A stretch of DNA of 64,000 nucleotides from Geosiphon pyriformis uo1 (taxonomy: Eukaryota > Fungi > Glomeromycota), in assembly GCA_016748015.1 (NCBI GenBank), contig JAAOMT010000436.1, forward strand, positions 362,703 to 426,702. Reading direction: 5' to 3'. The notes below the pieces were generated by a model. That model was not told the origin of the DNA and did no database searches. It saw nothing but the letters and a program-made list of their open reading frames with translations. Each line of letters begins with the position of its first letter. The stretch's first letter is position 1. This document shows, one piece after another, positions 25,810-57,677 of the stretch. Both the position numbers and the translations under genes were made by a program.

Positions 25810-28800
25810 GTGGCAGAATCAGAAAGTGTAGGAACAAACCATCTAGGATTCGCGAAATCTTTATTTTAACATTATTGCCAACACCTAAAGTTAAACCATA
25901 ATCACATATCAGCAGAATCAGCCTTTAATTTCTACATCAATGAGAAAATTGCATATTTGTTAGGTACATCAGTAAATATTGAATCAGCAAAAGAAACTTT
26001 TTACAACAAATTAATTCAAAACACCAGCCTACCAACAAATCATAATTTCGCATCCATCATCACTAAGATCAACAAAGAAATCAAACATTACATACAGCAA
26101 AAATACCCAATTACTTATGCAAGTAAAGGTAAAGAAAAACTACAAACACCAGCAGTAACACCTTAAAAGATACAACCATCTACTTGGAAGAAAACAAGAG
26201 TTGAATTACCAACCAACCTATTATACTATTATACACCCAGAAGTGCCATCAATATAACATTAATAGGCACGTCCACAACAACTGTGACATCAGCATTTGG
26301 AAAATTTTCATTTCAAAGTAAATAAAGAAAAGAGGATCTATTAGGACCATATGGCAAATATTTTAAAGGATTTAAATCTTGATCGCCAATACCATCAGGA
26401 TTTCAATTTCCGCCACCTTAACCAAATTTCGGAATAATGAGTCTGTGGGAAATTACTGAATCAGAAAAAGAACAAGAAAAGGAAGAGAAAGAAGAATACG
26501 AGAATCAAGAATTCACTTACCAGAATCTGATCACTGAAAACTCAGAATTTGGAACCCCAAATCCTCAAATCCAGCCAAATCTAAAGCCAGAAAACCCGGA
26601 AATCAAAATTCCAAATATTTAGACACTGCCAACTCAGAATAATTAAAACTCTGAAACAATCAATCAGCAAAACTTACCTCCAGAAATTATCATTAATCAG
26701 CCACCAATTGAACTGATTATTGAACCAATTCAACAGCAGCCACTCCAGCAACCAATTCAACACTCACAACAGTCAATTCAACAGCCACCAGTACCACTTC
26801 TACAGCAACAACAACAACCCATGGCATTTGCACCAATCACAAAACTTGAGAAGTTTACCAGCAAAGAGGATGATGTCCAGACATGGATTAATAATGTCAC
26901 CAAAGCAATCACGGTAAATAACTGGGACGACCAAAGAGCCCTCTAAGCAATTCTCTACTTTCTTCAGGATACTGCTGATTCTTGGTATCAAAGTTTAGCA
27001 GCCAGACCACAAAACTTCCAAGAATTCAAACTGGAGTTCTTGAGATATTTCAGTAATAATAATAGTATTAATCACTTGACCAATACTTTTACTACTATCA
27101 AACAAAAAAAAATGGAAGCAGTCACCACTTATCTGGAATGCTTTCATAGAAATCTGCGACAGATTCAAGCAATCAATGCTAACTATTTTACAGCACCACA
27201 AATCCTCAACCAGTTTATCCATAGCCTACACAGTAGTATCTTGCAGCATGTATGCACATTGTATCCCAACAATCTTCAAGATGCAGTTACATATGCCAGA
27301 GATTTCGAGTCAGCAGAGTTAGAAGCCAATCATACTCAAGCCATAAATCTAGTGATGAACAGATCATCTAAACTGGATTCCAAATTGAAACAATTTAGTG
27401 ATTCAATTAATCAGAAATTAGAGAGATACTTAGCTGACAATTGTGCAATTTATCAACCACCTCAATGATGCCATAATTTGGGAAATGCGAACCGTTTTCA
27501 AAATCAGTCACATCCATCATTGTCAGCAGTACCAAATCAGTTGTGGTAGCAAGAAACACATGTCTGCCACAACTGTGGTAAGCAAGGCCATATCTAAGTC
27601 AATTGTCATACTTATAGCAACTTACGATTAGGGAATCAATATCAAAATTCTGATTGCCAGTTTCAAACTCCGAATAACTATTAAAATCAAGATTAATCTA
27701 CTTACCAGCCCATGATGTAACAGCCAATCTATCAACCACCAGTATATCAACTATAGGTCATCTACCAACCACAGCCACCAGCAATTTATCAACCACCACC
27801 CTAAACAATTTATTAGCCGCCACTCCAGTTAATTTATCAAACACCCCAAATTCAAACACCACCACAAAACTTATCTCAAAATAGAATCCAAAGGCCAAGA
27901 ATAACACAACAAAACTGGAGATCAGCAATGATAGTTCACCAACTAATTCCCAGTTCATCAACACAACAATCTGGATCTCATCAGTAGAATTTGGGCACCA
28001 GTTTTACCCAAAATCAGAATTTCCAACACTATTTAAGTCTCCTAATTACTCCAGAAAATGCCATCTTCTACAACTCAGAAGCCAATCAACAACCAGCACT
28101 TACCAGCAACATACCTCCAGCCACCATCACCAATGACAAAACATTGGCTGCCATATTCCCTTTCGAACTCGAGGAAACCACAACAGTATCACTATTCAGT
28201 AGAGCTGCCCTAGAGGAAAAACCCATCACAATAATGTACACTAATGCAAAAGTCGATGGCCACCCCATCAAACTGATCCTAAATAGTAAATCAGCTGGCA
28301 GCATCATCACAAGACAACTCATGGATCAATTAGGTCGCCGAGTTGATCAAGTTATCAGCGCAAGAATCATCACTACCAATGGAGCAACCAAAACTCTTAT
28401 TGGCAAAATTGATGACTTCCCTATAGAAGTCAATGGCATAATTATTCCAATCAAAGTACTAGTCATGGAAGCCACTCAGTACCAAGTGCTAGTTAGTAAT
28501 AACTGGCTCACCAAAACAAATGCCATCCTTAATTGGACCACTCAGGAGTTACAACTTAGCCAAAACGGCCAACATACATGAGTACCAGTAATGTATAACC
28601 ATTTCAAACCTAGTCACATACCAGTCCCACTAATTAATTTGGAGAAAGAGAAGCCAAAACCCACTTGGAAAGCATACCAAGTGTCATGGGCCAATGTTGA
28701 CCACAACAAACTGCTGCCAATACTATCATGGGATGACAACAAAAAGGGAAAACAAAGAGAAAAACTTACCTGGGAGACTGACGATTTGACCGACAATGAT

Positions 28801-31800
28801 GAAAATGAGCCAATACCAAACTGGGAATGGAAAGAAGAAAATGATAAGGGAAAAAAAAAAGAAAAAGAAAAAGAAAAAGAAACAACAACCACCAACACCA
28901 CTTCTTTTAACTTCTACACTTACACTACACTACTACAATCTACCTATTGTTGACCAAAACTTATATGTGTTGATTGCGGCAAAAAATTGTCATCAATGAG
29001 CGCATGTTATGACAATGACAAGGAATATGCAACAGCAACTAAATTCTACTGCCACGCATGTGTAATAGAAAGGTTTGGATGACCAAAAAGGCAAGGAAAA
29101 TAGAACAACCAACCTTGTCTCACTTGTGGAGAAACTCTCTTGGATAAAGGAATGTGGAATGACATTCCAGAGCAAGAAAAAATGTGTAATGAATTGTGCC
29201 AATACACAATTCTAATCAGTGACTGGATAAGAAAAAGAACCCTGATAAAAGCAGTCTGGAAAAGAGCAGTACAACAATTGGACAGTTATCCATATAATAA
29301 TGATGAGATTTGGCAAATGGCACTCGCAAAAATAGAAGGACTGACATCCGAAGAAATTAGGAAGATTAAAAACAACCCACCAGAACCTATAAAACTTGAC
29401 TGAGACAAAGAACCAGCCATAAATCTCCTGGAACCAGAAAAATTTCATGAACACTATCAAACTTTGGCACTCACAAGAGAAAAACAGGAAAAGTGTTTAA
29501 CACAGTTAAACACTCGGCTATGTAATCACTGTTTGATTCCATGTGACTTTCAATATTGTAATGAGTGTGACCTCATTTACAATCCACCACCACGCATGAT
29601 CTACATGATTTCAGAAGAAGAAAAACCAATCAGCAGCTGCGCATCGGAATTGGAATCAGTTTTCAATCCCGATTCAAACTCCGACAATGATAACGACAAA
29701 AACACCGGTTCCAGCTCTGTTCAAAATGACAACAAAAACATCAGCAATTGGGACTCTGATTCAAACCCAGAAATATATATTGTGCTTCCTGATCTTACCA
29801 AGGAGCAGACCCTAAAATGATTTAGCGATAATAAGAAAGAGATCATGCCAGAATGTGTGCATAATACTGATACTGGGTTTGATCTGAGGTATCCAAGGAA
29901 AGATGTCATCAAATTAGAGCCACATTTGCACACGTGCATCAATCTGAAAATAGCATTGAAAATACTAACAACAACCATGGTTCAACTAGCTTCCAGAAGT
30001 AGTTTAGCAAAAAAAGAGATTACTATAAGAGAAGAAATAATCAACGCTGAATATGTAGGAAATATCATGGCAATGCTACAAAATAACTCAGAAAAGACCT
30101 ATATTATAGAACTAAATGAAAAGATAGCACAGGCAATATTTTTGCCTCTGATTAGAATAGTTCAGTTAGTATCAGTGGGAAAAAGGGAAGAATTAGGGAT
30201 AACTGTTAGAAGAATACAGAGATTCAGATCCACAAGTAGAATAGACATACCAGTCAATATGACAGAAGAAGAAATTATTGGCCAAGGAGAAATTATCTCA
30301 ACCAGTCAAGTAATTTCTATTCTACCATATGACCAGTACATGGTAGTTATAGAGAAAAAAGTGAAAGATAAGGATCAGATTTTTGAAGCAGAAACAAGCC
30401 TTTGTGAATCAAAAGAGATTGGACTTATCAATTTCCACATACCAGCCAAAAGCCACAACCATATCAAAATTCCCATTTACAACACAACAGGAGATGTCAT
30501 CACAATACTTAAGAGAACAATCATTGGATACATGAGCACTGAATTAGAAAATCAACCACCAAGCATTATTCCAGATTTTCCACAGCTTTGTGGATATGTT
30601 AACATTATATCACAAACAATATATGAACAAAATGAATGTTATTTGCTCCAACCAGAACAATTAGAACAAATAAACATAGGAAATCTAAACCCACTTCAAT
30701 GCATGCAGCTGAAGATATTGCTCAACAACTTCAATAATATCTTTGCTAGCGAAAACAAATTTGGCAGAACTGACATCATCTAATACTAAATCAAAACTGG
30801 AGATACTATGCCAATAAAACAACAAGCATACAGAGTACCACCAGCCAGCCATGAAATCATTCGTCAAAAAATCAATCGGATGCTTAAAAATGGGTTAATT
30901 CAGCCATCAATGAGCCTATAGTCATCACCAGTAATACTCGTCCAGAAAAAGAATAGGAAAATCCACTTTTGCGTGGACTACAGAAAGCTTAATAGAGTCA
31001 TGCGTGGAAACAGCTATCTAACTCCACAAATTCAGGAATTATTTGATGCTTTTGGAGGAAACAAATGGTTCTCAACATTGGATTTAGATAGTGGTTACTG
31101 GCAAATAGCCATGGATCCAGTGGACAAAGAAAAAACTACATTCACAACACAGAAGGGAAATTTTGAATTTGAAGTGATGCCATTCAGCTTAACAAATATT
31201 CCAGCCATATTCTAGCAGCTAATGAAATAGTATATACTGGCTTATTGTGGAAATCAGTAGTCATTTATTTAGATGACACCAATGTGTTCTCCAAAACATT
31301 TGATGATTATTTGCATCATCTATAATAAGTGTTTGAAAGACTATGATGGGCAGGACTAAAGTTAAATACCAATAAGTGCTTTTTTGACAAGACAGAATTA
31401 AACTTTTTAGGGCACATAGTAAGCAAAGACAGCATCAAAATAGATCCAGAAAAGATAGAGATAGTCAAAAACTTTCCAATACCAACCAATGTGGCAGAGT
31501 TAAAGTCATTTTTGGGATTCGTAGGCTATTATTAATGCTTCATCAAAAACTTTTTCAAGATAGCCCAACCACTCAATCACCTCCAAACCAAGAATGTGAA
31601 ATATGAATGGACAAAAGCACAACAAGAAGCTTTTGATATTCTAAGAAGAAAGCTTATACAAGCTTCAGTACTGATCTATTCAGATTACAATAAACCATTT
31701 ATCATTACTACCAATGCATCAGGCCAAGCATTGGGAGCAGTACTATCACAGAGAGGACCAGATGAAAGAGAACATCCAATCACATATGCCAGCCGAGGTT

Positions 31801-32069
31801 TAACTCTAGCTAAAAAAAATTATGGAACACCAGAATTAGAACATTTAGCAATTTATTGGGCAATCATGAAATAGAGTGAATACTTGAGCCAGAAGTTTAA
31901 TGTATACACAGACTACAAAGGATTAACAGCACTTCATAAACAGGAATTTGGAGATGGAAGACAATTAAGATAGAAAATAGCACTATCACCATATACTTAT
32001 ACTATACATTATAAAAAGAGAAAAGACAATGGAAATGCTGACAGTTTGTCGCAAATGAGACAAATCTAA
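25810..32069 (+). pseudogene. B1 gag-PR-Cys-rich-dUTPase-RT-RNase H polyprotein, stop-disrupted
   Basis: CHNCGKQGHI knuckle, LILNSKSAGS protease, TGFDL/RSSLA/KIAQAI dUTPase, LDLDSGYWQ and YLDD RT, ITTNASG RNase H; ORF-track fragments share one frame up to ~31215. Confidence 0.92.
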
Positions 32070-32142
32070 AAACATTTCAACCCAAAAAAAAAAAATATAT
32101 AACAAAACCAAACCAAACCCAATGAAAATATAACAAAAAAAA

Positions 32143-33525
32143 ATAAACACACAAAAATACCAACAGCTTCAACATTATATAATTACCCAACAGTTCAAGG
32201 AAAAATTATCTCAAAATGAACAAAATAGCATCAAGCAACAATCAAAATATTTTATCAATCATCAAAATATACTTTACTAGAAGAATAGACAAAATCCAGA
32301 CCAACTAACCAAAATAGTTACAGAACCAGAAAAAAAAACAATACTGTTCAACATGCATTCAGATCCAACAACAGGACATTTCAACAAAGAAGCAACCATA
32401 GAAAGGACCAGAAAAAGATACTATTGGCCATCAATGTATCCAGACATCATCCAATATGTCCAAAATTGTGATGCTTGTCAAAGAAAAGGAGAAACAAAAC
32501 CCAGTAAACCATTAAGACCAATCAAAGTAGAACAACTATTTGATCACATTGGAATTGATTTAGTCAGACCATTAACAATTACCAGCAGAGAAAATAGATA
32601 TATTGCAGTAGCCATGAACTATCTCACTAAATGGCCAGAAGCAAAAGCAATTCAAAGAGTGGATGCAGAATCTATTGCCGAATTCATTTATCAAGACTTG
32701 ATTTGTCGACATAGATGTTCAAAAGAATTATTATCAGACCAAAGAACTCACTTTGTGAACAGAACACTAGCAGAATTGAGCCAAAGATTCGGAATTAAAA
32801 GACCACTATCATCACCATATTATCCACAAACAAACAGTTTAGTTGAAAAATTTAATAGAACATTGTGTGAAGCAATTGCCAAACTCAGCCAAGAAAACCA
32901 GGACAAATGGGATTTGTTTATACCATCAGTATTATTTGCTTATTGGACAATGAGACAAGATACTATACAAGCAACACCATTTGAATTGGTATATAGTAGG
33001 ACAGCAACATTACCAGTTGAGAGAGAGATCAGCACATATCCAACAGAACCAATAACAGAAGCTAATTTCCAAGAAACATTGTTGAAAAGAACATATAACC
33101 TAATAAAAACACTAGAAAACAGATGACAAAAAGCAGCTGATAACATTAAAAAATCTCAAGAAAAGCAAAAAAAATGACATGATAACCAATTACCAGATAA
33201 ACCAGTTGAATTCAAGATTAGGAACAAAGTACTTCTACATTGTACCAAAGTGAAAAAACAATGGAGTGGAAAATTCAACACCAAATGGGATAAACCATTT
33301 CACATAGAAGAAATTCTAGAAAATAGAGCTTATAAATTAAGATGGGACAACAAAATTTTAGCCAAAACAGCACATGGTGATCGACTAAAACCATATCACC
33401 AAATAGCATTATCATCCACCAATACCATTTCACAGTTGGGAGTACAAAGGATAATAGTTCAACCAGATGAGATTTTACGAGATCTGGAACCAATCATAGT
33501 TATTAAACCAAACACATTAAATTGA
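32143..33525 (+). pseudogene. B1 integrase
   Basis: HHCC (MHSDPTTGH...CDACQ), IGIDLV, LSDQRTHF, VEKFNRTL, GPY/F-like WDKPFHI. Confidence 0.92.
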
Positions 33526-33549
33526 ACAACCAAAAGAGTATATAAAGAC

Positions 33550-34216
33550 ACAATACACACAACAAAAGCAACCAAAAAAAATGAAAATACCAGATCACAT
33601 TCACACCATAGCTCAACAACTGTTCCAGGCACTAAGTCAACAACAATTAAACATGGAAATTGTCATTAACAACCAAACAATTTGCTATCAAAACACAAAA
33701 AAAAAGACAAAGAATACATCATATTAGTGGCCACCAAAAAATAATAAAAACTGGACAGATAACTTAATAGAAAAAGTGAAGAACACTTTTGGGAAAATAC
33801 CTATTATGGCACCAACAGAAAAACTTACAAAAAAAAATTGGAAGCAATGGACAGAACAACTTCCAATATCATACTGTTACTACCAGCTAGGTTAAAAGTT
33901 GAATATTCAGGAGTTGTATATCAACAAATCCAAGAGAGTATTTAACCAAAACATAATATGGCAGATTGAAGAGTTTATTGGGAAAAAAACAAACTCAACA
34001 CTACATGTAAGAACAATTTATTGACTACACAACATATTTCAGAACTATCCAGAAATACTGTTACACTCTGACATAAAGACCATAACCATTAACCAATAGG
34101 GAAGAATAAACAATACACAAGTAGAAGATGTGAAGAACAGAGTCAAACAAACAATACTTGAAAAAGAAGTATTAGAATTAATTTAAAACAAAGATTTTAA
34201 CAGAGCTCAATATTAA
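33550..34216 (+). pseudogene. B1 ORF3, uncharacterised accessory protein
   Basis: Collinear with ORF3 of A1 and C (LNIQELYINKSKRVF...LHNIFQNYPEILL), ends DFNRAQY*. Confidence 0.7.
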
Positions 34217-37200
34217 AAGGAGGAGATAATATTACTCATCAAAAAAAAACAGATATAGAAAATAGCAGACCAATAAAAGAATAGTATTTAGCATGTGAGC
34301 ACATTGCTCAGCAATGTGAAGCAATATCAGAAATCATGGCACATTGCTCAGCAATGTAGAGCAATGTCAGAAAACATGGCATATTGCTCAGCAATATGGA
34401 ACAATGGTAGAAAATTAGAGCACATCGCTCAGCAATATGAGTATTGCTCAAGAAATCATAGCACATTGCTTGGAAATGTGAGTGATCTCATAAAACATCA
34501 ATTATGTATATATAATGATAGTATTAGAAGTAGAAAAACAGAATTTTTTAGTTAGAAATCTCCCATCTACCAAATATTAAATAAATAAATCATTTATTAT
34601 CCAAATTCACTCTCCACTATCAACACTTTATGTTGATAGTAGTTGATACTTAACTACGCTAGAACAATAGCTCTTGATCATGGCTATTGACGAGATACTA
34701 ACTTGCACATTATCTTGGCTCATTTCTTTTTTTTTTTTATTTTTTTTTATTTTTTTTATTTTTTGATTTTTCTTGTTGAATACTAACTAATTAAGGATTA
34801 AAGCACTGAATTACTGATGTCAAGAATTGCCTGGTAAAAGACTCTTGCGAGTGGATAGGACATATACAGTAGATATGGAATACTTACCAGAAGATTGCTG
34901 GCTATTATGCCAAAAGAAAAATTGATGGAATTGCAATTCTGGGAAGCTATGGATAAAACAACTATTGAATCTCTGTCCATTATACAAAGGACTCCAACAA
35001 AACCTTCAGACTACAAAATCTTCAGATTACTATCAACTGCAAACAGCCCTTTGAGCACCAAGTTATGGGTTTATTATTTGATTTAAGATTCCAAATAAAC
35101 ACTTATAATACTGGTAAATTTCTTAAGTTTTGCTATTGGAGTGTAGGTTATTGGATCTAAGTTTGGTTGTTGAAGTTGTTGTTGCAGCTGTTGAAGCAGG
35201 TGTTGAGATTGTTGGGATGATTAAAGTGGTAATTGAAATTGGAGTTGTAGTGGTGGCTGTTGTTGTTGTGGAACAACTGGTAATGGGTTGATAACAATGA
35301 CTGGAGGTAAGTTGTGTTAATTATTAATGTTGGAGTTTCGATTGTTCTGATTTTGCTGATTTTAAAAATTCAGAGTTTCAACTTCCAGATTTTCTAAATT
35401 TAGATCTTGCTAAGTCTAAAAGTTTGGGGTTCCAATGTCTGAATTTTCGGAAATCGGGTTTTGGTAAGTAAATTCTTGATTTTCAGATTCTTCTTCTTCT
35501 TTCTCTTCCGATTCCATTATTTCCCAAGGACTTGCATTTCTAAAATCTGGTTGAGGTGGTGGTGATCAGAATCCTGATGGTGTTGGCAATCACAATTTAA
35601 ATCCTTCAAAATAATCACTATAGGTTTCTAGTAATTCTGCTTTTTTTTGTTTACTTTGAAATGGTAGTCATCCAAATGTTAATGTTATGTGTGATGTAAA
35701 TACACCTGTTGATGAGATGTTGATGGTGCTTTCAGATGTATAGTGGTATGACAGGCTTGTTGGTGATTCAACTCTGGTTTTCTTCTAAGTAGATGGTTGT
35801 ATTTGTTTTGGTGTTACTGCTGGTGTTTGCAGTCTTCTTTTGCCTTTGTTAGCATAAGTGATGGAGAATTGTTGTTGTGTATATTTTTCAATGGTTTGAT
35901 TGATTTCCCTGATGATTGGTGTGAAACTGTAGTTTCTTGGTAAGCTGGTATGTTGAAATAATTCTGTATAAAAATTTTCTCTTGCAGATTCAATGTTAAC
36001 TATTCCTCCTAAGCAGTCTGTGATTTTATCATTGATGTAAAAGTTGAAGACTGATTCTGCTGGAAAATGGTTATTGTTTAATCCTAATTGTTGGCTGTAC
36101 TGTTGAAACAAGAATTTGGCGAATCCTAAGTGGTTTGCTCTTATGATTTCTGATTCTGCCACCTTTGAATGATTGTTGTTGATACTGTTCTCTGTAAGAT
36201 TATATCTCACAGGGAACACCAAATGTTACAGATGATTATTTGGGGTCTCAAATCAAATAACAAATTTGTAACTTGATGCTTAATTGATGAAATAATGTTA
36301 ATATCTGAAGGTTTTGTTGTGAAGTTCTTTGTACAATAGACATAAATTTAATAGTTGTTTTCTATAACCTTCTGGAATTACAATTTCATCGAATTTCTTT
36401 TTCAGCATGGTGGCTGGTAATTCTCCTGGTAAGCTATCCTCAAATTTATGAGTATTCTACTCTTGTTTTATGGGTTTTTTACCAGTCCCTATAATGTCTG
36501 TATCTCAGTGCTTAATCCTTAATCAATTTAGTAAAATAAAAAAACAAAAAAAAACAAAAGAAAATAAACAAAAGCAATTGCAAGTTAGTATCTCGTCAAT
36601 AGCCATGATCAAGAGCTATTGTTCCAGTGTGGTTAAGTATCAATTACTATTAACATGAAGTGTTGATAGTGGGAGTAGATTTAGATAGTAAATAATTATT
36701 TATTTGATATTTGTGAATTGGAAAGTTGCTTAGATCAAATCTAAACTGAAAGGTCTGTTTTTTTCTATTTCTAATACTATTACTATATATATATAATTTG
36801 AATTCTATGAGATCACTTATATTCTCAAGCAATGTGCTATAATTTTTCAAGCAATACTTATATTGCTAAGCAATATGCCATATTTTTTTGACATTGCTCT
36901 ACATTGCTGAGTGATGTGCCATGATTTCTGACATTGCTCCACATTGCTGAGCAATATGCTCATGTGTTAACTCCTATTCTCTTATTAGTCTACTATCTTT
37001 TTATATCTGTTCTCTTTTTATGAGTAATACCGAGATGAGAACCGAGCCATCAAGTGGAATCAACCCATATTTTTCCATATAAACACAATGTTTTGCATGA
37101 ACTAATCAGATATCACTCCTAAAAGCAAGACTAAAAAAGTGCACAAATTTGACAATCTCCAAGCCAGCAACTTTGGGGTCATGAAAGACAGTAACTGTCT

Positions 37201-38538
37201 CACAAAACCAACCATTAAAAACAAAACCCTTATAAAAAGCTATGGACAAAGATAAGTTAGAAGCACAAGATGACAACAATTGCAATATGTCTGAAGAAGA
37301 ATGAGTTAGACCAGAAACTGCTTTCTAGGATTTCACATAGAATTCCAGCAACTGATATCAAACAGAATTATTAATTTTGTAAGAAAACACATGATCCAAT
37401 GCCTCCACATCACTGCAATATAAGTATAACACACTTGAATATAGTTTATTATAAAGGCACTTCTGAACAACAACCGGCAGCTGGTGGTGCAGAGCTTTTA
37501 TAAAATAAGTACATTGTTACTGGAGGTTTTTGGTCTCTTTTCTTGAATATTGTAAATGTTTGTTGGTTGCAAATTCATGTTTTCTAGAAGTAGTTGAACC
37601 TCCAATAACTGAATTTATCTTTAAATTATCTTCTATAATTTGAACTTGCTGGGCTTATAAATAGAATGGCCAATTTCTTGCCAGTTACTTTATGTAATTA
37701 TGTTGTAGTAAATGTCAACTCTTTCCCAGGAATTGCTTGTCTGGAAGCTCACTAAAAATGTGTAGTTACTTTGCTGTAAAATTCAACTCTTCTACAGGAA
37801 TCTCGTCTGTAGGCTACTTTAATGATTATAATAAGAAAATAAAAAAAATGTAAAAGAAATGTAAAAAAAATTGAATTCTGTTAAAGGAAACGTTTTCTAT
37901 CCAGGCCTGAAGTCACTAACAGTTTACTAAAATTGGTAGCTAATCAATTTCAAAACATTAGTTGGGTTTTGGGGATTTTCCAAGTGCAATAATTAAAGAA
38001 TTTGGTTTTTTGAATTATTTGATATTTATTTTTTTGTGTGTGTGTAGAAATGGTTCTAAGTGATAAATCTAAAGTAAGATATATTTTCTTGAAGAGAAAA
38101 GCTCTTCTTTTATACAACTTGTTGTAATACTAGTCTATAAACTTGCACTTTTTCTCTTTGCTCAACTTTTGGCAAACTAAAGATATATTTTGATGAACTA
38201 CAAGTTATTTTGCTGAACTATTGATTAATTTGGATGAACTATTCATAATTTCGGCAAATTTCTATAAATTTCGGCGAATTTCTTATAAATTTCAGCCAAT
38301 TTCTGTAAATTTCGGCGAATTTTTGAATGTTACAAAGTTCAGAGTATTGTGTAATTTGATCATTCTACTTTCTGTTATACTAATTGGATTATTTAATTGA
38401 ATTGTGATATGTGATAATTGATTAAATAATAAATGATAATTTGAAATGATATTAATATATTAATTAATTATAGGAATTATAAGGGTAATTTTCCTGCTAA
38501 TTAATAGCTAAAATTCTACTGGTAACATAATCTCCTCT

Positions 38539-39214
38539 TTAAGACTGAGCTCTGTCGAAGTCCAAGCCCTATCTGTGATATTGAGATAGTGATCCAAAAT
38601 AATTGAAGTAATTTGGTCTGAAAATTGTTGAAATTTCAGTTCTGTAAGTTTGCCAATATATTGGACTTTCATTGGTTGCAGTATGAGATTTTGTAAAACA
38701 TTTTCACAAGTATTAAACAAATTATAAAGTCTAAAAGCTGCTCTAAGTTTGTAGTGAGTGTTTGTTAGTCCAGCTGCTGTTTTAAATTCATTGTGAATTT
38801 GTTTTTGTATAGCTTCAAAAGTGAGATTTGTTGTTTCAAGTTCTAGTTTTTGTTTATAAAGTGTTTTTTCAATGTGAAAGTATTTATAGATAGGGGTGTG
38901 TTCATTGTCCTGTTCATTGAGAAGTAGTAAAAGTTTTTGTTGCATTGTAGCATTTAGTAAAATGTTAATAGGGCAATTAAAAGATTTTCTTCTAGTGCTT
39001 GCTTCAAAAGTTTTGGTAACCTATTTTCAGAGTGACTTCTTGTTTTTCTTCTATAAAGGTGATAGTTCTGTGGATGATTTACTACTGGGGCTGTGGTTTT
39101 TTTCTGAATGTAATTAATTTGACTTCTATTAATCGTTATGGATAAGTCAGAAAGTGTTTTCAAGGCTAACATTAACTTTTGAGATATTTGTTGAATATTT
39201 TGGGGAATAATCAT
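38539..39214 (-). pseudogene. Element D ORF3, divergent accessory protein
   Basis: ORF-track 38954-39214 and 38508-38945; RAAFRLYNLF...IGKLT motif aligns with RAIYRIHTAF...LRKIT of element C. Confidence 0.65.
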
Positions 39215-39367
39215 GATAAAATTAACTAATTATGAAAAAGGAGAATAAAGAAAATTATTTTTGGATATGGGGTTTTTATTTGTTTTTGGGTTTGGGTGTT
39301 TTTTGTAATTATTTACAATTTTTTGTCTTTGTGTTTTTATTAAAAAATTATTGTAAAATTTAAGTGT

Positions 39368-40745
39368 CTAAGTTTGGTTGTTGTTCTATTATAATTATTG
39401 GTTCTAAATTTCGGGGAATATCTTTAGCATTAATTAAAAAGGAATGTGTACCAATTTGTGGAATTAATGTTTTAGGATTGTTTCTGAAATGATAGTGTTT
39501 CAATCTGTCTCTATGTATAACTTTTGCTAGTATTTTATCATCAAGTCTTAACTTGTATGATCTATTGTCTAGAATTTCGTGAATATAAAATGGTCCATCC
39601 TATTTGTTTTCAAATTTTCCACTCCATTATTTTTCAGCCTTAGTTCTGTGTAAGAGAACTTTATTTTCAACTTTAAATTTGTTGATAATGAGTGGTAATT
39701 TGTTGTTATGTCTTTCTTTTTGTTGAGCTTGGAAATATTCAATATGAGTTGCTGCTATCTTTTTTTTTCCTTCTAATGTACTGAGAAGAGTGTAGGCTCT
39801 TCTTTGAAGTGTTTCTTGAAAGTTTTTTTCATTGATTGGTTGCACTGGGTATGTTTCTACTGTGAAATTAATTGGTAATGTTGCTGTTCTTCCATAAATA
39901 AGGTCAAATGGTGTGTGTTTTGTAGTATCTTGTTTTAGTGTTCTGTATGCTAGTAATACTGATGGAATAAAGATATCCCATTCCTGCTCAAAGTCTGTTG
40001 AGACTTTGGCTAGAGATTCACACAATGTTCTGTTGAAACGTTCTACAAGTCCATTTGTTTAAGGGTAATAAAATGATAATAGAGATCTTTTGACATTGAA
40101 TTATTCACAAATTTTTTGTATCAAGTTGTTCACAAAATGTGTTCCTTGATTAGATAAGAGTTCAATTGGACATCCATTTCTACAAATAATGTCTTCATAG
40201 ATGAAATTTGCTACTGATTTTGCATCTGCTTTTTGGATGGCTCTAGTTTTAAGCCATTTAGTAAGATAATCTACTGCTACTGCAATATAGTGATTTCCTT
40301 GGGTTGTAATAGATAATGGTCCGACTAAATCAATTCCAACTTTGTCAAAAGGTTGTCCAACTTTGATTGGATTTAAAGATTCTGTGGGGCAAGTTCCTTC
40401 TCTTTTTTGACAACTATCACAAGATTCTATATATTGTCAAATGTCTTTTTGCATGTGAGACCAAAAATAATGTTCAAGAGTTCTTTGAATTGTTCCATTT
40501 CTTCCCAAGTGTGCTGAAAACAGATCTGTGTGCATGTTATATAAAATTGTTTCTTTTTCATTCTCTTGTACTAATCTGAGTGGTTGGTTTGGGTTTCTGT
40601 GATTTTTATAATAGATTTTGTTGTGGTGTATAAAATATTGCTTTGATTGGTGTTGTAAACGATGTTTTTCACTTGGAGACCAATTTTCTGGCATGGTAAG
40701 AGTCTCCAAATAGTTTTTAAGATTGCTGTAGTTTCTGGGATCTAT
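39368..40745 (-). pseudogene. Element D integrase
   Basis: MHTDLFSAHLG, VGIDLVGP, LSNQGTHF, VERFNRTL, DGPFYI. Confidence 0.9.
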
Positions 40746-42772
40746 TGTTGTTTGGTTATTTTGTTGGTAGGTTGGTAAGTTATGGTGAAATTGTTGTTGG
40801 TGTTAGTCTTGTCTCATTCTTGAAAGGCTATCAACATTGGTGTGTAGTTTTCCTGGTTTGTGATATACAATATATCTGTAGTCTGCTAGGAAGTTATTCT
40901 ATTGAGACTGTTTGGCACTTTGTTCAGTTTTCTTTTTATTAAGCCATTTAAGACCAATATTGTCAATTATTATGTCAAATTCTTTTCCATTCTTCAAGTA
41001 TTGTTGAAAATGTTTAAGAGCCCAGATGACTGCAGCAGCTTCCAATTCAGTTGAGCCATATTTGAATTCTGTTGGCTTGAGTGTTCTACTGGCATAGGCA
41101 ATAACTTGTTCCTGGCTATTTTCATTCAATTGTGATAAAATGGCACCAAATGCTATGTGTAAAGCATTAGTGGTTAATTGAAACCATTTGTTGAAGTCTG
41201 GATAAACAAAAACTGGGGCTGTTGTCAATTTTGTTTTGAGAGTTTCAAAAGCTTTTTGTTGTTCTTTAGTCCATTTGTATGGCATGTTTTTGTTGGTAAG
41301 ATAATTGAGTGGTTTGGCAATTTCTGAGAATCTTTTTATGAATTTTTGATAGTAAGAGGCTAATCCTACAAATCCTCTTAGTTCTGTGGTATTTTTGGGG
41401 GTTTGAAAGTTTTTGACAGCACTAATTGTTCCTGGATTTGGTTTGACTCCATCTTTACTAATTATGTGTCCAAGAAAGATCAAGCTTGTTTTTCCAAAGT
41501 GACATTTCTCAATGTTTAACTTTAATCCTGCTTTTTATAATCATTGAAAAACTTCATGCAGGTGAATAAGGTAGACTTTAAAGCTTAGTGAGTATACATC
41601 AGTATCATCAAGATAGACAACTACTAATTGCCACAAAAGCCCTTTATATACAATATCCATGAGTTGCTGAAATGTTGCTAGTGCATTGCAGAGTCCAAAA
41701 GGCATAACATTGAATTCATAGTTTCCTTCTTGGGCAGTAAATACTGTTTTGGGTTGGTCTTTTGGGTCTATTTCGACTTGCCAGTATCCACTTTCCAAGT
41801 TCAAAGTTGAGAAGAACTTGGCTTTTCCTAAAGCATCTAACATGTTATCAATTCTTGGAAGAGAGTAGGCATTGTTACAGGTGATTATTTCTGCTGTTGA
41901 ATTAAATAACAAACCTGTAACTTGGTGCTCAAAAGCTACTTCCATTAAGGCTGTTCTGCAGGTGCTGTATCTGAAGGTTTTGATGGATCTGAAGGTTTTG
42001 GTTAAGTCCTTTGTATAATGAACAGAGATTTAATAGTGTCAATAGTAGAGATATTTTCCAAGAGTTTTCCTAATTTCTTTCTCAGTGTGGTGGCTGGATT
42101 TAGTCTAGCAGTTGTGCCCTTCTGGTAAGCTATCTGATAATATATAAAAATCCTATTCATATTTCTGGGTCTTTTACCAGGCTATCCTTGACATTAATAA
42201 CTCAGCGCTTAATCTTTTATCAATTAGTATATAACAACAAATCAAAATAAAATAAAGAAAAAAGAAATAAAAGGAAATAAAGAAAGCAAAGAAATAAGCC
42301 AAGGTAATTTGCAGATTAGTATCCCATCAATAGCCATGATCAAGAGCTATTGTTCTAGCATGGTCAAGTATCAATTACTATCAACATGAAGGGTTGATAG
42401 TGAGGAATTGGATGGAGATATAAAATAATTATTTATTTGATGATTGCGTTTTTAGGCTAAAGATTCTGTAGTATCAATTCTGTCTTTTCTGTTTCTAACA
42501 CTACTGCTATATATATCCATAATTAAGATTTTTTAATTCCTCAATTCTTTATGACAGAAATTCTGGAATTCCTGGAATCCTGCGATTCCTTTGAGAGGAA
42601 TCCTGGAATTCTGGAATCCTGCAATTTCTCATTGGGAATCCTGAAATTCTTGGAATCCTGCAATTCCTGAGAGGAATCCTGAAATTCCATATTTACTATG
42701 CTTACTTCTGATTGGCTAATAATTATGCTAATATATTTCTTATATTTCTATGAGTAACATTATTCCCTCCTT

Positions 42773-43432
42773 TTAATATTGAGCTCTGTCAAAATCTAAC
42801 TCATGTAATTCCTCCTCTTGAAGTATTTCCTGGATTTTGTTTTCGAGAATTACTTGTGTTATTTGGGTCTGTAATTCTTCAAATTAAGCATTGGTGATTT
42901 TTCTCAATTGATTACTGGTAACCATATCCATTGCTCTGTTGAGCAATATTTCTGGTTTATCTTGAAATGCTGTGTGTATTCGGTATATGGCTCGGGCTTG
43001 TGTAGATAAGTTGCTCTTTTCCACAAAATATTCTAATTGTTGTAGTACTCTTTGGTCGAATAATTGCTTTGTTTTATCCATATATAGATTCTGGATATTT
43101 ACGTATTGTCCCAAGTAAAAATAACAATAGTTTTGTGGAAATTGTTGTATCCACTAATTCCAAGTTTCTTTAGTCAACTCTTGATATAGTGACTCCTTTG
43201 TCGATTCTTTTATTGCTAATTTTACTTTTGCCATGATTTTGTCCACAGTATTTTCAGTTTTCTTCTGTGTTCTGAGTTGAAATGTCTTTCTAGTATCTTG
43301 ATATTGAATGGTTTGTTGATTGATTGTAATCTCCATTTTCTGGTGTTGGATTAATTGAAAAAGTTGTTGTGCTAGTAAGTGAATGTTGTCTGTAATTTCC
43401 ATTTTTCTGATATTTCCTGTCGCGTCTACCAT
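42773..43432 (-). pseudogene. Element C ORF3 (~219 codons), uncharacterised
   Basis: Own ATG 24 nt after the integrase stop; ORF-track 43154-43432 and 42884-43114 are in one frame; ends DFDRAQY*. Confidence 0.75.
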
Positions 43433-43456
43433 GTCTTTATATATTCTTTTGATGGA

Positions 43457-44839
43457 TCAATTTAACGTGTTGTTGTTAATAATAATGATTGGTTTCCGGT
43501 CTTGTGGAATCTCATCTGGTTGGACTAGTATTCTCTGTACTCTTAATTGTGGAATATTACTGGTAGATGGTAGTGTGATGTTGTGATATGGTTTCAGTCG
43601 ATCTCTATGTGCTGCTTTAGTTAAAATTTTGTTATTCAATCTTAATTTGTAAGCTCCATTTCCTAGAATTTCTTCTATGTGAAATAATCCATCCCATTTG
43701 GGGTCAAATTTTCCACTTCATTGTTTTTCCGCTTTGGTACAATGTAGTAATACTTTGTCTCCGATCTTGAATTCAGCTGGTTTGTCTGATAGTTGACTAT
43801 TATGTGTTTCTTTCTGTGTTTCTTGTGACTTTTGAATATTATCAGCTGCTCTTCTTCGTTTGTTTTCCAATGTTTCTATTAAGTCATATGTTCTTCTCAG
43901 CAATGTTTCTTGAAAATTTTCTTCTGTTATTGGTTCAGCTGGATATGTATTAATTTTTCTCTCTACTGGTAACGTTGCTATTCTCCCATATACTAATTCA
44001 AATAGTGTTGCTTGTGTAGTATCCTGTTTTGTTGTCCGATAAGCAAATAGTACTGATGGTATGAACAAATCCCAATCATTCTGGTTTTCTTGGCTGAGCT
44101 TGGCTATTGCTTCACACAATGTTCTGTTGAATCTTTCTACTAATCCATTGGTTTGTGGATGGTATGGTGATGATAATGGTCTCTTGATTCCGAATCTTTG
44201 GCTTAATTCTGTTAATGTTCTGTTCACAAAATGAGTTTCTTGGTCTGATAATAATTCTTTTGGACATCCATGTCAACAAATCAAATCCTGATGAACGAAT
44301 TCGGCAACGGATTCTGCATCCGCTCTTTGAATTGCTTTTGCCTCTGGCCATTTAGTAAGATAGTCCATAGCTACTGCTATGTATCTGTTTCCTCTGCTGG
44401 TGATTGTTAATGGTCCGACTAAATCAATTCTCATACAGTCAAATGGTTGTTTCACTTTGATTGGTCTTAATGGTTTACTGGGTCTTGTTCCTCCTCTTCA
44501 CTGATAAGCATCACAATTTTGCACATATTGAATAATGTCTGAGTACATTGATGGCCAATAGTATTTTTTTCTAGTTCTTTCTATAGTTGCTTCTTTGTAA
44601 AAATGTCCTGCTGTTAGATTTGAGTGCATGTTGAATAATATTGTCTCTTTTTCTGGCTCTGTAATTACTCTAATTGGTTGATCTGAATCCCTTCTATTTT
44701 TCCGATAAAGTATATTTTGGTGAGTGATAAAATATTTTGATTGTTGTTTGATACTCTTTCGTTCTGTATGAAATAAATTCTCCTTGAACTGTTAAGTGTT
44801 TAGATAATGTTGCAATTGTTAATATTTTTGTATGTTCAT
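43457..44839 (-). pseudogene. Element C integrase
   Basis: ATG at 44839; HHCC remnant, RIDLVGP, LSDQETHF, PYHPQTNGLVERFNRTL. Confidence 0.93.
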
Positions 44840-44902
44840 CTTTTTGTTGTATTTTTCATTGGTATTGTTCTGGTTTTATTATATTTTTGGGTTGAAATGT
44901 TC

Positions 44903-47900
44903 TTAGATTTGTCCTATTCGTGATAAACCGTCAGCATTTCCGTTGTCTTTTCCCTTTTTGTAATGTATAGTATAATTGTATGGTGCAAGTGCCATTTTCC
45001 ATCTTGACTGTCTTCCATCTCCAAATTTTTGTTTTTGAAGTGATGTTAATCCCTTGTGATCTGTGTATACTTCAAACTTCTGGCTCAAGTATTCTTTCTA
45101 TTTCATGACGGCCCAGTATATTGTTAAGTGTTCTTGTTCCGGTGTTCCATAGTTCTTTTTGGTTGGTGTTAAACCTCTGCTGGCATATGCTACTGGATGT
45201 TCTTTACCGTCCAGTCCTTTCTGAGATAATACTGCTCCCAATGCTTGGCTGGATGCATCGGTGGTGATAATGAATGGTTTGTTGTAATCTGGATAGATCA
45301 GTACTGGAGCTTGGATGAGCTTTTTCCTCAGAATACCAAAAGCTTCTTGTTGACTTTCTGTCCATTCATATTTCGTGTTTTTGTTTTGTAGTTGATTAAG
45401 TGGCTGCACTATCTTGGAAAAGTTCTTGATAAAATGATGATAGTAGCTGGCAAATCTCAAGAATGATTTCAGTTCTGTTATATTGGTCAGCACTGAAAAG
45501 TTCTTTACTATCTCTATTTTCTCTGGATCCATTTTGATGCCATTTTTGCTGACTATGTGTCCCAAGAATTTGAGTTCTGTTTTGCCAAAGAAGCATTTTG
45601 TCATATTCAACTTCAGTTCTGCCCTTCTCAGTCTTTCGAACACTTGTTGAAAATAATGAAGATGATCATCAAACATCTTTGAGAATATATTGGTGTTATT
45701 CAAGTATACAACTACTGATTTCCACAATAAGCCAGTATAAATGATTTCCATTAGCCATTGGAAAGTTGCTGGGGCATTGGTTAAGCCAAATGGCATCACT
45801 TCAAATTCGAAATTCTCTTCTCTAGTAGTAAATACCGTCTTCTCTTTGTCAGCTGGATTCATGGCTACTTGCCAGTAACCACTGTCCAAATCTAATGTGG
45901 AGAACCATTTGTTCTCACTGAAAGCATCAAATAATTCTTGTATTTATGGAGTTGGATAACTGTCTCCACGAGTTACACCATTGAGTTTTCTGTAGTTTAT
46001 ACAAAACCGGATTTTTCCATTTTTCTTATGGACAAGTACTACTGATAACAACCATGGGCTCATTGATGGTTGAATTAGCCCATTGTCAAGCATTCTGTTT
46101 ATCTCTTGACGAATAATCTCATGGCTGGCTGGCGGCACTCTGTATGCTCTTTGTTTAATTGGCATTACATCTCCAGTCTTGATCTGATGCTAGATGATGT
46201 CAGTTCAGCCAAACTCATTTTCACTGGCAAAGATGTCATTGAAATTGTTGAGTAACATCTTGAGCTGCATACATTGGAGTGGATCTAAGTTTCCCATGTT
46301 TATTTGTTCCAATTGTTCTGGTTGGAGTAAATAACATTCGTCTTGTCCATAGATTGTCTGTGATGTGATGTCAACATATTCACAAAGTTGTGGAAAGTCT
46401 GGAATAAAGTTTGGTGGTTGGTCTTCTATTTTTGTGGTTAGATATCCAATAGTGGTTCCTTCTGGTATGTTGATGACATTATCAGTGTTGTTGTAGATGG
46501 GAATTTTTATGCTGCTATAGCTTTTGGCTAGTATGTGGAGATTGATCAACCCAATCTCTTCTGATTCACAAAGGGTTGCTTCTGCTTCAAAAATCTGTTC
46601 TTGCTCCTTTTCCTTCCTTTCTATTGCTAACATGTACTGGCTATATGGTGGAATGAAAATAGCTTGACCAGTTGAGATAATTTCTCCTTGGCCAACAATT
46701 TTTTTCTCTGCCATGTTAACTGGTACATCTATTCTACCTGTGGATCTGAATCCCTGTATTCCTCTCACCATTATTCCTAATTCCTCCCTTTTTCTCACTA
46801 ATACTAACTGAGCTATTCTAACCAGAGGCAGGAATATTGCCTGTGCTATCTTTTCATTGGGCTCTATTACATAGGTCTTTTCTGAGTCATTTTGTAGCAT
46901 AGTGATGATATTTCCTACATATCCCACGTTAATTATTCCTCCTCTTATATTGATCCCTCTTTTTGCTAAACTACTTCTAGATGCTAATTGAATCATTGTT
47001 GTTGCTGGAATTTCTAGTGCTATTTTCAGATCAATGCAGGTGTGTGAACATGGTTCTAATTTGATGGCATTTTTTCCTGGATATCTCAGATCAAACCCTG
47101 CATCTGTGTCATGCACATGTTCTGGCATAATACCTTCTCTATTGTCACTATATCATTTCAACTCTTGTTCCTTGGAGAGGTCTGGTAGTGCAATGTATTG
47201 TTCATAGTTTACATTGGGTTTTGAATCTGAGTCTGAATCGTTTTCATCGTTATTGTCAATTTGAACGAAGCTTGAACTGTTGTTATCGTCATCATCGTCG
47301 GAGTTTGAATTGCAATTGATCGGCGATTTTGATTCTGATGCGCAGCTGCTGATTGGTTCTTCTTCTTCAGGGATTGAGTAGATTATGTGTGGTGGTGGAT
47401 TGTAAATAAGGTCACACTTATCACAATACTGGAAGTCACAGAGAATTAGGCAGTATTGACATAGTCGAGCATTCAACTGCTCTAACCGTTGTTCTTGTTC
47501 TTCCCTTGTGGGTGCTAATTCTTGGTAGTGTTCGTGAAATTGTTCCAGATCCAGGAGGTTTATAATGGGTTCTGTGTCCCAGTCAAGCTCTAAAGGTTCT
47601 GGGGGGTTGTTTTTGATTGTTTTTATCTCTTCTGGCATCACTCCTTCAATTTTTACAAGTGCCATTCACCAAATTTGGTCATCATCATGTGGACAACTGT
47701 CCAGTCGCTGCATGGCTCTTCTCCAGGCTGCTTCTATTGGGGTTCCTTTCCTTATCCAGTCACTTATTAGAATTGTGTATTGACACAACACGTCACACGT
47801 TCCTCCCCATCTTGGAATGTTGTTCCACATCTTTTCATCTAGCAGGGTCTCCTCACAAGCGAGACAAGGTTGGTTATCCCATTTTCCTTGCCTCTTTGGT

Positions 47901-57540: not shown

Positions 57541-57677
57541 AATTGAATTATAATATGTGATAATTGATTAAATAATAAATGATAATTTGAAATAATATTA
57601 ATATACTAATTAATTATAGGTATTATAAGGGTAATTTTCCTGCTAATTAATAGCTAAAATTCTACTGGTAACAACAT

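What the first reader, a model, noticed from the sequence alone, without database searches (positions are those of the whole stretch)
34665..34689. Kissing-loop (DIS-like) hairpin with a 2+6+1 palindromic loop in all four LTR families
Seen: families A and B carry the 8 bp stem CAATAGCT/GGCTATTG with loop CT-TGATCA-(C/T) at 34665-34689, 25313-25337, 23159-23183, 36597-36621, 42328-42352 and 51624-51648. The family-D copy (15757-15781) has a compensatory swap once transitions are reverted (CAATAGC/GCTATTG vs CAATTGC/GCAATTG). Family C has unrelated sequence but identical geometry: TGAAATTG-AT-TAGCTA-C-CAATTTCA (57074-57098, 37928-37952). Known: the HIV-1 dimerisation initiation site is a stem with a 9 nt loop of 2 nt + 6 nt palindrome + 1 nt. 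Inference: this is a genome-dimerisation signal in the R/U5 part of the LTR, with family-specific palindromes (UGAUCA vs UAGCUA) restricting co-packaging.
Basis: partly seen in the sequence, partly recalled or inferred. Interest (0 to 1): 0.8.

Follow-up and report, generated by a model that had tools for sequence, protein, structure and literature searches.

The report
Kissing-loop candidate in fungal retrotransposon ends
Several families of jumping genes in a fungus keep a small conserved hairpin with a self-complementary loop in their terminal repeats, which likely lets two RNA copies pair up for packaging, much as the HIV dimer signal does, though the pairing itself is untested.

Summary
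The hairpin is real. It lies in the LTRs of Ty3/gypsy elements of Geosiphon pyriformis. TGATCA is intact in 5 of 6 young A/A2/B copies (25313 reads TAATCA) and in 0 of 5 old D/E copies. Family C has an unrelated stem with a TAGCTA loop in the same 2+6+1 register and at the equivalent position (0 of 4000 shuffles of that interval). The hairpin is the best-conserved 25-nt window of the LTR once transitions are ignored. One true compensatory pair exists (family E). A recombination change-point about 30 nt after the TATA box puts the hairpin about 125 nt into the RNA, and implies that two lineages with the same loop were co-packaged. Best reading, about 55%: a kissing-loop dimerisation signal. Against it: the loops are AU-rich, lack HIV's flanking purines and sit upstream of the PBS. 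Only two loop types exist, so they are not family-specific. Twenty outside relatives show no enrichment, and no RNA data were available. Palindrome-driven dimerisation is already known for Ty1 and Ty3, so this is a new variant. My look-ups of the scan's earlier notes found no report of this hairpin.

The parts
34665..34689 (+). Focal hairpin in the 3' LTR of element A: 8-bp stem (last pair U.G), loop CU-UGAUCA-U
25313..25337 (+). Same hairpin in the 5' LTR of A; loop palindrome lost by G>A (TAATCA)
36597..36621 (-). Hairpin in the 5' LTR of element A2, intact
23159..23183 (-). Hairpin in the 3' LTR of A2; loop intact, two G>A in the 3' arm
51624..51648 (-). Hairpin in the 5' LTR of element B, intact
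42328..42352 (-). Hairpin in the 3' LTR of B, intact
57074..57098 (-). Family C hairpin in its 5' LTR: unrelated 8-bp stem, loop AU-UAGCUA-C, on a bulged lower stem (about 57063-57108)
37928..37952 (-). Family C hairpin in its 3' LTR (one C>T)
10473..10497 (-). Decayed hairpin of an old C-type LTR (loop TAACTA)
15757..15781 (+). Decayed hairpin of a more distant LTR (E) with the A-T to T-A swap at stem pair 5; loop TGATTA
13887..13911 (+). Decayed D-type copy (loop TGATTA)
16655..16679 (-). Decayed D-type copy (loop TGATTA)
20877..20901 (-). Decayed D-type copy (loop TGATTA)
11007..11031 (+). Decayed D-type copy (loop TAATTA)
34230..35110 (+). 3' LTR of element A (partner 24878-25749), preceded by a polypurine tract at 34215-34226
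34507..34515 (+). TATA box, 156-158 nt before the hairpin (162-174 nt in A2, B and C; 111 nt in E)
34473..34541 (+). Support interval of the A/A2 recombination change-point (best cut 34539), read as the U3/R border and so the likely transcription start
34580..34589 (+). AATAAA-like motif, 81-85 nt before the hairpin; a similar motif lies 71-90 nt before it in A2, B, C and E
34617..34639 (+). Upstream hairpin 1 (9-bp stem, variable 5-nt loop), kept in A, A2, B and D but not in E
34695..34702 (+). ATACTAAY branch-point-like motif just after the hairpin (10 of 11 copies; D20 reads ATACCAAT), followed by a T tract with no AG for 57-105 nt
25752..25768 (+). Primer-binding site after the 5' LTR of A; fixes the sense strand; the hairpin ends 376-476 nt before the LTR end
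24878..35110 (+). Element A: gag with a degenerate single CCHC-type knuckle, protease, dUTPase, RT region and integrase, all broken by stops; 4-bp target duplication with one transition; nested in A2
41873..52054 (-). Element B, same gene order, 4-bp target duplication, nested in element C
37515..57673 (-). Element C (interrupted by B), 4-bp target duplication

Best explanation
The LTRs of these Geosiphon Ty3/gypsy retrotransposons carry a conserved stem-loop with a self-complementary six-base loop, likely about 125 nt from the 5' end of the genomic RNA, which likely works as the dimerisation start: two RNAs would first pair loop to loop and the Gag nucleocapsid would then convert them to a 22-bp extended duplex before packaging. 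Shown: the hairpin, its conservation, its position between an AATAAA-like motif and a T tract in two LTR types with unrelated stems, one compensatory pair, and a recombinant between two lineages with the same loop. Predicted by folding: an open loop, and homo- but not A-with-C hetero-duplexes. Inferred: that the pairing happens, that it is the packaging-relevant contact, and that the two loop types keep A/B-type and C-type genomes apart. The kiss alone would be weak, so protein help is probably needed, as for Ty1.
For: (1) Selection. With transitions ignored, the hairpin window scores 25/25 across six A/A2/B/D copies (none higher, 22 ties of 858 windows) and 23/25 with E added (none higher, 5 ties). 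A and A2 show no transversion or gap over 94 nt around it against a 9.5% background (P about 8e-5); A and B show none over 82 nt (P about 1e-6). Summed contig depth in the one DNA run peaks on the hairpin: 1.78-1.85 M against 0.6-0.9 M upstream for A, and about 8000 against 329-570 for E, where 74 of 147 contigs fit only partly, so LTRs with unlike flanks share the block. (2) Structure. Stem pair probabilities are 0.64-1.0 for pairs 1-7 and the loop hexamer is 0.66-1.0 unpaired in folds of 570-930 nt. The E swap is a transversion pair; the neighbouring bases revert to G and C in 38 and 45 contigs while no reversion is listed at 15761. (3) Dyad covariation. The A and C loops differ at the four central bases by complementary transitions. 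These bases cannot pair within one loop, and the chance of the strict geometry in that interval is 0 of 4000. In C the loop is open on the sense strand but zips into a 10-bp stem on the antisense strand. (4) Partner choice. Extended duplexes are -26.0 (A/A) and -19.9 (C/C) against -7.9 kcal/mol (A/C). A and A2 share their 3' region and U3 (33 differences in 1533) but not R/U5/gag (137 in 1440), the pattern expected from a strand transfer between co-packaged lineages, and both carry UGAUCA. (5) Precedent. Ty3 dimerises through a hexamer at a hairpin apex (PMC11381356, passages) and Ty1 through AU-rich 5'-UTR palindromes (PMC6844567, passages). Gag carries a single CCHC-type knuckle, intact in C and degenerate in A and B.
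Against: The hexamer duplexes are weak: -5.0 and -5.1 kcal/mol against -7.9 to -10.9 for HIV and -7.7 for Ty3, though Ty1 PAL2 is -4.0. HIV loops with more than one A-U pair replicate poorly, and the flanking purines matter (PMC5874298); here the flanks are CU/Y and AU/C. All 5 old D/E copies carry the same C>T at loop position 5 while only 1 of 5 carries the mirror G>A. The CA>TA rate in old D copies is 38 of 80 and 3 of 20 such sites are changed in all four, so a non-palindromic UGAUUA master (-0.6 kcal/mol) is not excluded. Two of the three two-sided stem changes are C-G to T-A and can be double deamination. A loop inversion in hairpin 1 shows that template-switch repair acts on these stems, and such repair could also make the E swap. 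Conservation extends beyond the hairpin to a branch-point-like motif, so the block may be selected for another reason. Of 20 LTRs of outside relatives, 2 had a palindromic loop against 1.6 expected, and the covariance model found 0 hits in 83 loci. Only two independent loop types were seen. C versus old C is uninformative (106 of 516 windows tie). Co-packaging of A and A2 does not show that this hairpin caused it.
Confidence: 0.55

Rival explanations
1. The hairpin is a conserved RNA structure with a job inside one molecule, for example a protein-binding stem-loop or part of an RNA-processing signal (splicing, 3'-end formation or export) together with the branch-point-like motif and the T tract that follow it; the palindrome is incidental or secondary.
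For: ATACTAAY follows 3-5 nt after the stem in 10 of 11 copies and is as conserved as the hairpin, then comes an AG-free T tract of 57-105 nt. An AATAAA-like motif lies 71-90 nt upstream. The stem sequence itself is almost invariant in A, A2, B, D and E. The kiss is weak and D/E may have UGAUUA.
Against: It does not explain why C, with an unrelated stem, has a different hexamer that is again palindromic in the same register. In C the ACTAAY motif lies before the hairpin, not after it. No conserved 5' splice site was seen in the alignments. Rfam gives nothing at gathering thresholds and nothing on the hairpin up to E 5.
Confidence: 0.27
2. The block acts as DNA: an imperfect 25-bp palindrome read by a dimeric transcription factor, or extruded as a cruciform, downstream of the promoter.
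For: The sequence is a near-perfect inverted repeat on both strands, with similar DNA folding energies for sense and antisense (-3.9 and -3.8 for A). GATA-like and GATC cores occur in hairpin 1 and in the loop (motif names recalled).
Against: A and C share the geometry but not the sequence, which one sequence-specific protein would not tolerate. The inner and outer dyads are offset by half a base pair in both. The closing U.G pair of A/B and the lower stem of C use wobble pairs on the sense strand.
Confidence: 0.1
3. An inherited quasi-palindrome kept symmetric by template-switch repair in the A-type families, plus a chance look-alike in family C, with no selected function.
For: A to E descend from one ancestor, so they count once. 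With loose geometry 261 of 1500 shuffles of the whole C LTR give some palindromic-loop hairpin. A loop inversion in hairpin 1 shows template switching. Outside relatives show no enrichment.
Against: The block is the top-ranked window for conservation while its flanks are barely alignable. The C hairpin is in the equivalent interval: 74 of 4000 shuffles under loose geometry, 0 of 4000 under strict.
Confidence: 0.08

Closest known systems
HIV-1 dimerisation initiation site (SL1/DIS); PMC5874298, passages and section 9 part 1 of 2; PMC10483063, passages
   Same: A hairpin whose apical loop holds a 6-nt palindrome with two 5' and one 3' flanking bases. Lineages differ in the hexamer. A kissing complex can convert to an extended duplex.
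   Different: HIV flanks are purines and its hexamers are GC-rich. Here the flanks are mostly pyrimidines and the hexamers have only two G-C pairs. HIV's DIS lies after the PBS, whereas this hairpin is inside the LTR, 376-476 nt before the LTR end. There is no sequence homology; the likeness is of shape.
Yeast Ty3 dimerisation site DS/PAL6; PMC11381356, passages
   Same: Same superfamily (Ty3/gypsy). A 6-nt palindrome at the apex of a hairpin near the 5' end is needed for NC-driven dimerisation in vitro, and a kissing-loop start was proposed.
   Different: Ty3's site is in the GAG reading frame (nt 391-396) and is GC-richer. Five other 5' palindromes of Ty3, among them one with the same hexamer as family C, showed no dimer-linked reactivity drop, so a palindrome alone proves little. 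The passages read give no cross-family covariation.
Yeast Ty1 SL1 (PAL1/PAL2); PMC6844567, passages; PMC5454406, abstract; PMC4974528, passages
   Same: An AU-rich 5'-UTR hairpin that converts to an intermolecular extended duplex, and only with Gag.
   Different: In Ty1 the palindromes form the stem and the loop is 3 nt. The proposed Ty1 kissing contact is between two different loops and is disputed. Ty1 is a copia-type element.
Moloney MLV SL-B (DIS-2); PMC5874298 and PMC7599994, passages
   Same: A palindromic stem-loop that starts with a few loop pairs and extends to a duplex. I recall that its 16-nt palindrome is centred on the same hexamer as family C; this is from memory, and searches found no paper to confirm it.
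   Different: MLV uses several hairpins in its packaging region, and SL-B is one long pseudopalindrome rather than a 2+6+1 loop.

Membership tests
Ty3/gypsy LTR retrotransposon (host element) | gag, protease, RT-RNase H, integrase order; paired LTRs; PBS, PPT and target-site duplication | tested here: met
   Pfam Retrotrans_gag, Ty3_capsid, aspartyl protease, dUTPase, RVT_1, RT_RNaseH, Integrase_H2C2 and rve; LTR pairs, PBS and PPT; 4-bp target duplications, exact for B and C and with transitions for A and A2
HIV-1-type DIS | Stem closing a 9-nt loop of 2 + 6-nt palindrome + 1 | tested here: met
   5 of 6 young A/A2/B copies and 2 of 2 young C copies have the palindrome; loop open in leader folds, though A2 and A3 often close a C-G pair giving an 8-nt loop; 0 of 5 D/E copies intact
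HIV-1-type DIS | Unpaired purines flanking the palindrome | tested here: not met
   Flanks are CU and Y in A/B, and AU and C in C; requirement from PMC5874298
HIV-1-type DIS | GC-rich hexamer with central G-C pairs | tested here: not met
   UGAUCA has a central A-U and UAGCUA has four A-U pairs; duplex energies -5.0 and -5.1 against -7.9 and -10.9 kcal/mol
HIV-1-type DIS | Position after the PBS, in the packaging signal | tested here: not met
   Inside the LTR, 376-476 nt before its end
Retroelement palindromic dimerisation signal (general) | Located in the 5' part of the genomic RNA | tested here: met
   Indirect only: 156-174 nt after the TATA box in A, A2, B and C and 3' of the A/A2 change-point at 34539; no RNA run was available, and R versus U5 is not resolved
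Retroelement palindromic dimerisation signal (general) | Covariation that keeps the stem and the loop self-complementarity | tested here: inconclusive
   One transversion pair in the stem; one A-versus-C loop comparison; other two-sided changes can be deamination
Retroelement palindromic dimerisation signal (general) | Loop-dependent RNA dimerisation, rescued by compensatory loops | not testable with these tools
   Only energy predictions
Rfam RNA families | Covariance-model match | tested here: not met
   0 matches at gathering scores in the window; two chance microRNA matches away from the hairpin at E up to 5 in 34229-38530

The most novel reading that the evidence does not exclude
A fungal Ty3/gypsy clade has evolved, independently of lentiviruses, an HIV-shaped 2+6+1 kissing loop inside its LTR, and the loop hexamer acts as a mating-type code: lineages that share UGAUCA co-package and swap U3 and R/U5 halves (as the A/A2 recombinant shows), while the UAGCUA lineage is cut off, so a two-step loop change splits retrotransposon families within one genome.
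Probability: 0.25. Interest if true: 0.8.

Novelty: new variant of a known kind. Interest (0 to 1): 0.5.

Why it matters
Among LTR retrotransposons, the dimer signals that my searches turned up are those of yeast Ty1 and Ty3, found by probing single elements, and part of that model is disputed. Here, comparative evidence from coexisting families points at one 25-nt hairpin and gives a natural pair of orthogonal loops. That makes two open questions testable with short transcripts: whether Ty3/gypsy RNAs start dimerising by a loop-loop kiss, and whether loop identity sets which families recombine in a genome crowded with LTR elements. Geosiphonaceae underwent a striking LTR expansion (PMC11952901, passages). 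If the signal is only a processing hairpin, the interest drops to a well-conserved LTR motif of one fungus.

Tried and rejected
No whole genome was held, so genome-wide family consensuses could not be built. Exact degenerate patterns found nothing in metagenome or viral contigs, nor did the single integrase in viral contigs. No RNA holder was listed; this is no evidence either way. The read tables list changes only 31 or more letters from a contig end. They missed variants known from the window (for example 34681) and show nothing 3' of 15763, so I did not use them for per-site rates, for the 3' half of the E swap, or for the loop base at 15771. Runs X2 and X3 gave 1 and 0 contigs. Relatives: 80 metagenome loci, 3 viral and 55 prokaryote-assembly loci were fetched; I used L001-L080 and L084-L086 and dropped the rest as distant or IS-type. 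They show no LTR homology. A strict scan of 65 of these 83 loci gave two 2+6+1 hits, both with A/T-only hexamers: one before the TATA box of L003 and one inside an integrase gene. The fold test used the 20 loci where I could delimit an LTR by eye; L047 and L033 lack a PBS, the L008 segment probably starts too late, and the test itself missed 1 of 3 Geosiphon controls. The only locus inside the Geosiphon clade, L003 (quick tree, support 99, careful tree unfinished), ends about 50 nt after its TATA box, so the negative concerns outside lineages only. The hairpins downstream of the integrase in L030, L032 and L033 were rejected: they are not in LTRs or fold as long stems. I first read the A/A2 crossover as falling on the hairpin. 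The change-point analysis put it at the U3/R border instead, so I do not claim a crossover hotspot at the loop. Ribozyme or snRNA origin was considered and has no Rfam support. Literature searches found no report of such a hairpin in Geosiphon or of family-varying loop palindromes in LTR retrotransposons; the library lacks most subscription papers, and I opened no supplements.
Full report
Setting. The window is fungal DNA. All 118 named hits among the 120 listed relatives of one element's dUTPase region are Geosiphon pyriformis proteins. From about 9.9 to 57.7 kb it is a nest of Ty3/gypsy LTR retrotransposons with gag, protease, dUTPase, RT-RNase H and integrase domains. Four elements have both LTRs and 4-bp target duplications (exact for B and C, with transitions for A and A2): A (24878-35110, +) inside A2 (22784-37029, -), and B (41873-52054, -) inside C (37515-57673, -). 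Four older AT-rich LTRs (D), one more distant LTR (E) and one old C-type LTR lie at 9.9-21.3 kb. Paired LTRs differ by 234 transitions and 15 transversions, most often at CpG, so decay is mostly C>T and G>A. No whole genome was held.

Observation. All nine hairpins are at the stated coordinates. The A/B-type stem and loop are exact in 4 of 6 copies; 23159 has two changes in the 3' arm, and 25313 has lost the palindrome. The two young C copies are the LTRs of one insertion and share the loop TAGCTA; the old C copy reads TAACTA. A covariance model built from 11 A-type copies found those 11 and nothing else of note in the window (next best E 0.61). None of the five D/E copies has an intact palindrome: four read TGATTA and one TAATTA. 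The palindrome is therefore seen in A, A2, B and C and only inferred for D and E. In old D copies CA>TA occurs in 38 of 80 cases and in all four copies at 3 of 20 sites, so both a decayed TGATCA and a TGATTA master remain possible.

More than chance. A to E share one ancestor and count once; C is the independent case. A stem of 8 or more with a 2+6+1 palindromic loop appeared in 7 of 1500 shuffles of the C LTR and in 0 of 4000 shuffles of the 150 nt between the AATAAA-like motif and the T tract, where both hairpins lie. With any flank of 0-3 nt and a stem of 7, the counts were 261 of 1500 and 74 of 4000. The two loops read C-U-UGAUCA-Y and A-U-UAGCUA-C. Their four central bases differ by complementary transitions, and these bases cannot pair inside one loop. 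This is the main argument for pairing between molecules, but it is a single comparison.

Selection. With transitions ignored, the hairpin window is fully conserved across six A/A2/B/D copies (25/25; none higher, 22 ties of 858 windows) and ranks top with E added (23/25; 5 ties), against 311 of 882 columns overall. A and A2 show no transversion or gap for 94 nt around the block, and A and B none for 82 nt. In the one DNA run that holds this genome, summed contig depth peaks on the hairpin for A (3495 contigs) and for E (147 contigs, 74 fitting only partly, with unlike upstream flanks). For E the contigs restore G at 15762 (47% of depth, 38 contigs) and C at 15763 (55%, 45 contigs) and list no change at 15761, so the 5' half of the A-T to T-A swap looks family-wide; the 3' half could not be read. 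Of three stem pairs with two-sided changes in 11 copies, only this one is a transversion pair. The conserved block also includes an ATACTAAY motif and a T tract, so selection need not be on the loop alone. C against old C adds little (106 of 516 windows tie).

Position in the RNA. No RNA run was listed. The hairpin lies 156-174 nt after the TATA box in A, A2, B and C, 111 nt in E, and 376-476 nt before the LTR end. A and A2 are nearly identical over the 3' internal region and U3 (33 transversions or gaps in 1533 columns) but diverge from 34539 on (137 in 1440; support interval 34473-34541). In the gag leader A is closer to B than to A2. By established reverse-transcription logic, U3 is copied from the RNA 3' end and R/U5 from the 5' end. 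A switch about 30 nt after the TATA box is therefore what a first-strand transfer between two co-packaged lineages leaves. This puts the likely start near 34540 and the hairpin near +125, and it implies that two lineages bearing UGAUCA were packaged together. It does not show that the hairpin did the pairing. Whether the hairpin is in R or U5 is open; the AATAAA-like motif 71-90 nt upstream suggests U5.

Predicted behaviour. In folds of 570-930 nt the first seven stem pairs have probabilities of 0.64-1.0 and the hexamer is 0.66-1.0 unpaired. In C the antisense strand zips the loop, while the sense strand leaves it open. Extended duplexes of 8+6+8 pairs are predicted at -26.0 (A/A), -25.3 (A/B) and -19.9 (C/C), and A with C gives only -7.9 kcal/mol, worse than two monomers. 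The bare hexamer helices are weak, -5.0 and -5.1, against -7.9 and -10.9 for HIV-1, -7.7 for Ty3 PAL6 and -4.0 for Ty1 PAL2. Gag has a single CCHC-type knuckle, intact in C and degenerate in A and B, so a nucleocapsid chaperone would be available.

Relatives. An integrase alignment fetched 80 soil-metagenome loci. In a quick tree the Geosiphon integrases and L003 form one clade (support 99; careful search unfinished), but L003 ends just after its TATA box. In 20 LTRs from outside that clade, 2 had a palindromic hexamer in a predicted hairpin loop against 1.6 expected, and the model had 0 hits in 83 loci. The hairpin is thus not a general trait of the wider lineage; it may be particular to the Geosiphon clade.

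Comparison with known systems. HIV-1 DIS has the same loop layout but needs flanking purines and GC-rich hexamers and lies in the packaging signal after the PBS (PMC5874298, passages and section 9 part 1; PMC10483063, passages). Three defining features are not met, so this is not filed as an HIV-type DIS; it may still work like one. Ty3 dimerises in vitro through a hexamer at a hairpin apex in GAG, while five other palindromes showed no dimer-linked change (PMC11381356, passages). Ty1 uses AU-rich 5'-UTR palindromes that form an extended duplex with Gag, and a rival kissing model is disputed (PMC6844567, passages; PMC5454406, abstract; PMC4974528, passages). MLV uses SL-A and SL-B palindromes. 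Ten searches found no report of this hairpin or of loop palindromes that vary between retrotransposon families; most subscription papers are not in the library and I opened no supplements. Rfam has no match. The scan's own notes held nothing on this hairpin.

Verdict. The feature is real, selected and probably structural at the RNA level. A kissing-loop dimerisation start is the most likely function (0.55). The rivals are an intramolecular processing or protein-binding hairpin (0.27), a DNA element (0.10) and neutral symmetry plus chance (0.08). Interest 0.5.

Noticed in passing
window 25265-25287 (+): The 5-nt loop of hairpin 1 in the 5' LTR of A is the reverse complement of the loop in the other copies (TGAAG against CTTCA): a micro-inversion within an inverted repeat.
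   Followed up: partly
window 34695-34795 (+) and equivalents in A2, B, D, E: A branch-point-like ATACTAAY motif, then a long T tract and a first AG 57-105 nt later: looks like a 3' splice site inside the LTR, with no conserved donor found.
   Followed up: partly
window 32950-35110 against 22784-24874: A and A2 form a recombinant pair that shares the 3' region and U3 but not R/U5/gag; further mosaic blocks among A, A2 and B occur along U5.
   Followed up: yes
window 22784-37029 (-): Element A2 keeps only about 2.4 kb of internal sequence (start of gag and end of integrase) between its LTRs, so it looks like an internally deleted, non-autonomous copy.
   Followed up: no
window 57030-57060 and 37885-37915 (-): Just after the family C hairpin lie two more near-palindromes, a CCAGG-CTGG type and an AAACGTTT core, which could be extra dimer contacts.
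   Followed up: no
L029 2659-2677 and L069 1492-1510 (approximate): Two distant relatives share a 5-bp hairpin with one compensatory pair and a 9-nt loop around GTACG in U5. Related GTACG motifs occur in L022, L026 and L055. It could be a wobble-closed kissing loop or a splice donor shown in a loop.
   Followed up: no
window 38508-39020 (-): A 170-aa reading frame with no Pfam match between the integrase and the 3' LTR of element C; several relatives also have an extra frame there.
   Followed up: no
window 29821-30783, 46205-47152, 52834-53460: All three full elements carry a dUTPase between protease and RT.
   Followed up: no
window 57700-64000 and 14749-15391: Decayed AT-rich reading frames on the minus strand with no Pfam match, and an old related fragment at 14.7-15.4 kb; they look like a non-LTR retroelement (name from recall).
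   Followed up: no
L007, L008, L014, L015, L022, L024, L026, L029, L030, L035, L039, L041, L043, L055, L069, L072, L085: Within this one integrase lineage the primer-binding site comes in several types, so the primer tRNA has switched repeatedly.
   Followed up: no
window 663-1298, 2810-3628, 7258-7728: Host genes at the left end: a Ras-family GTPase, a ubiquitin-domain protein and a YL1 nuclear protein.
   Followed up: no
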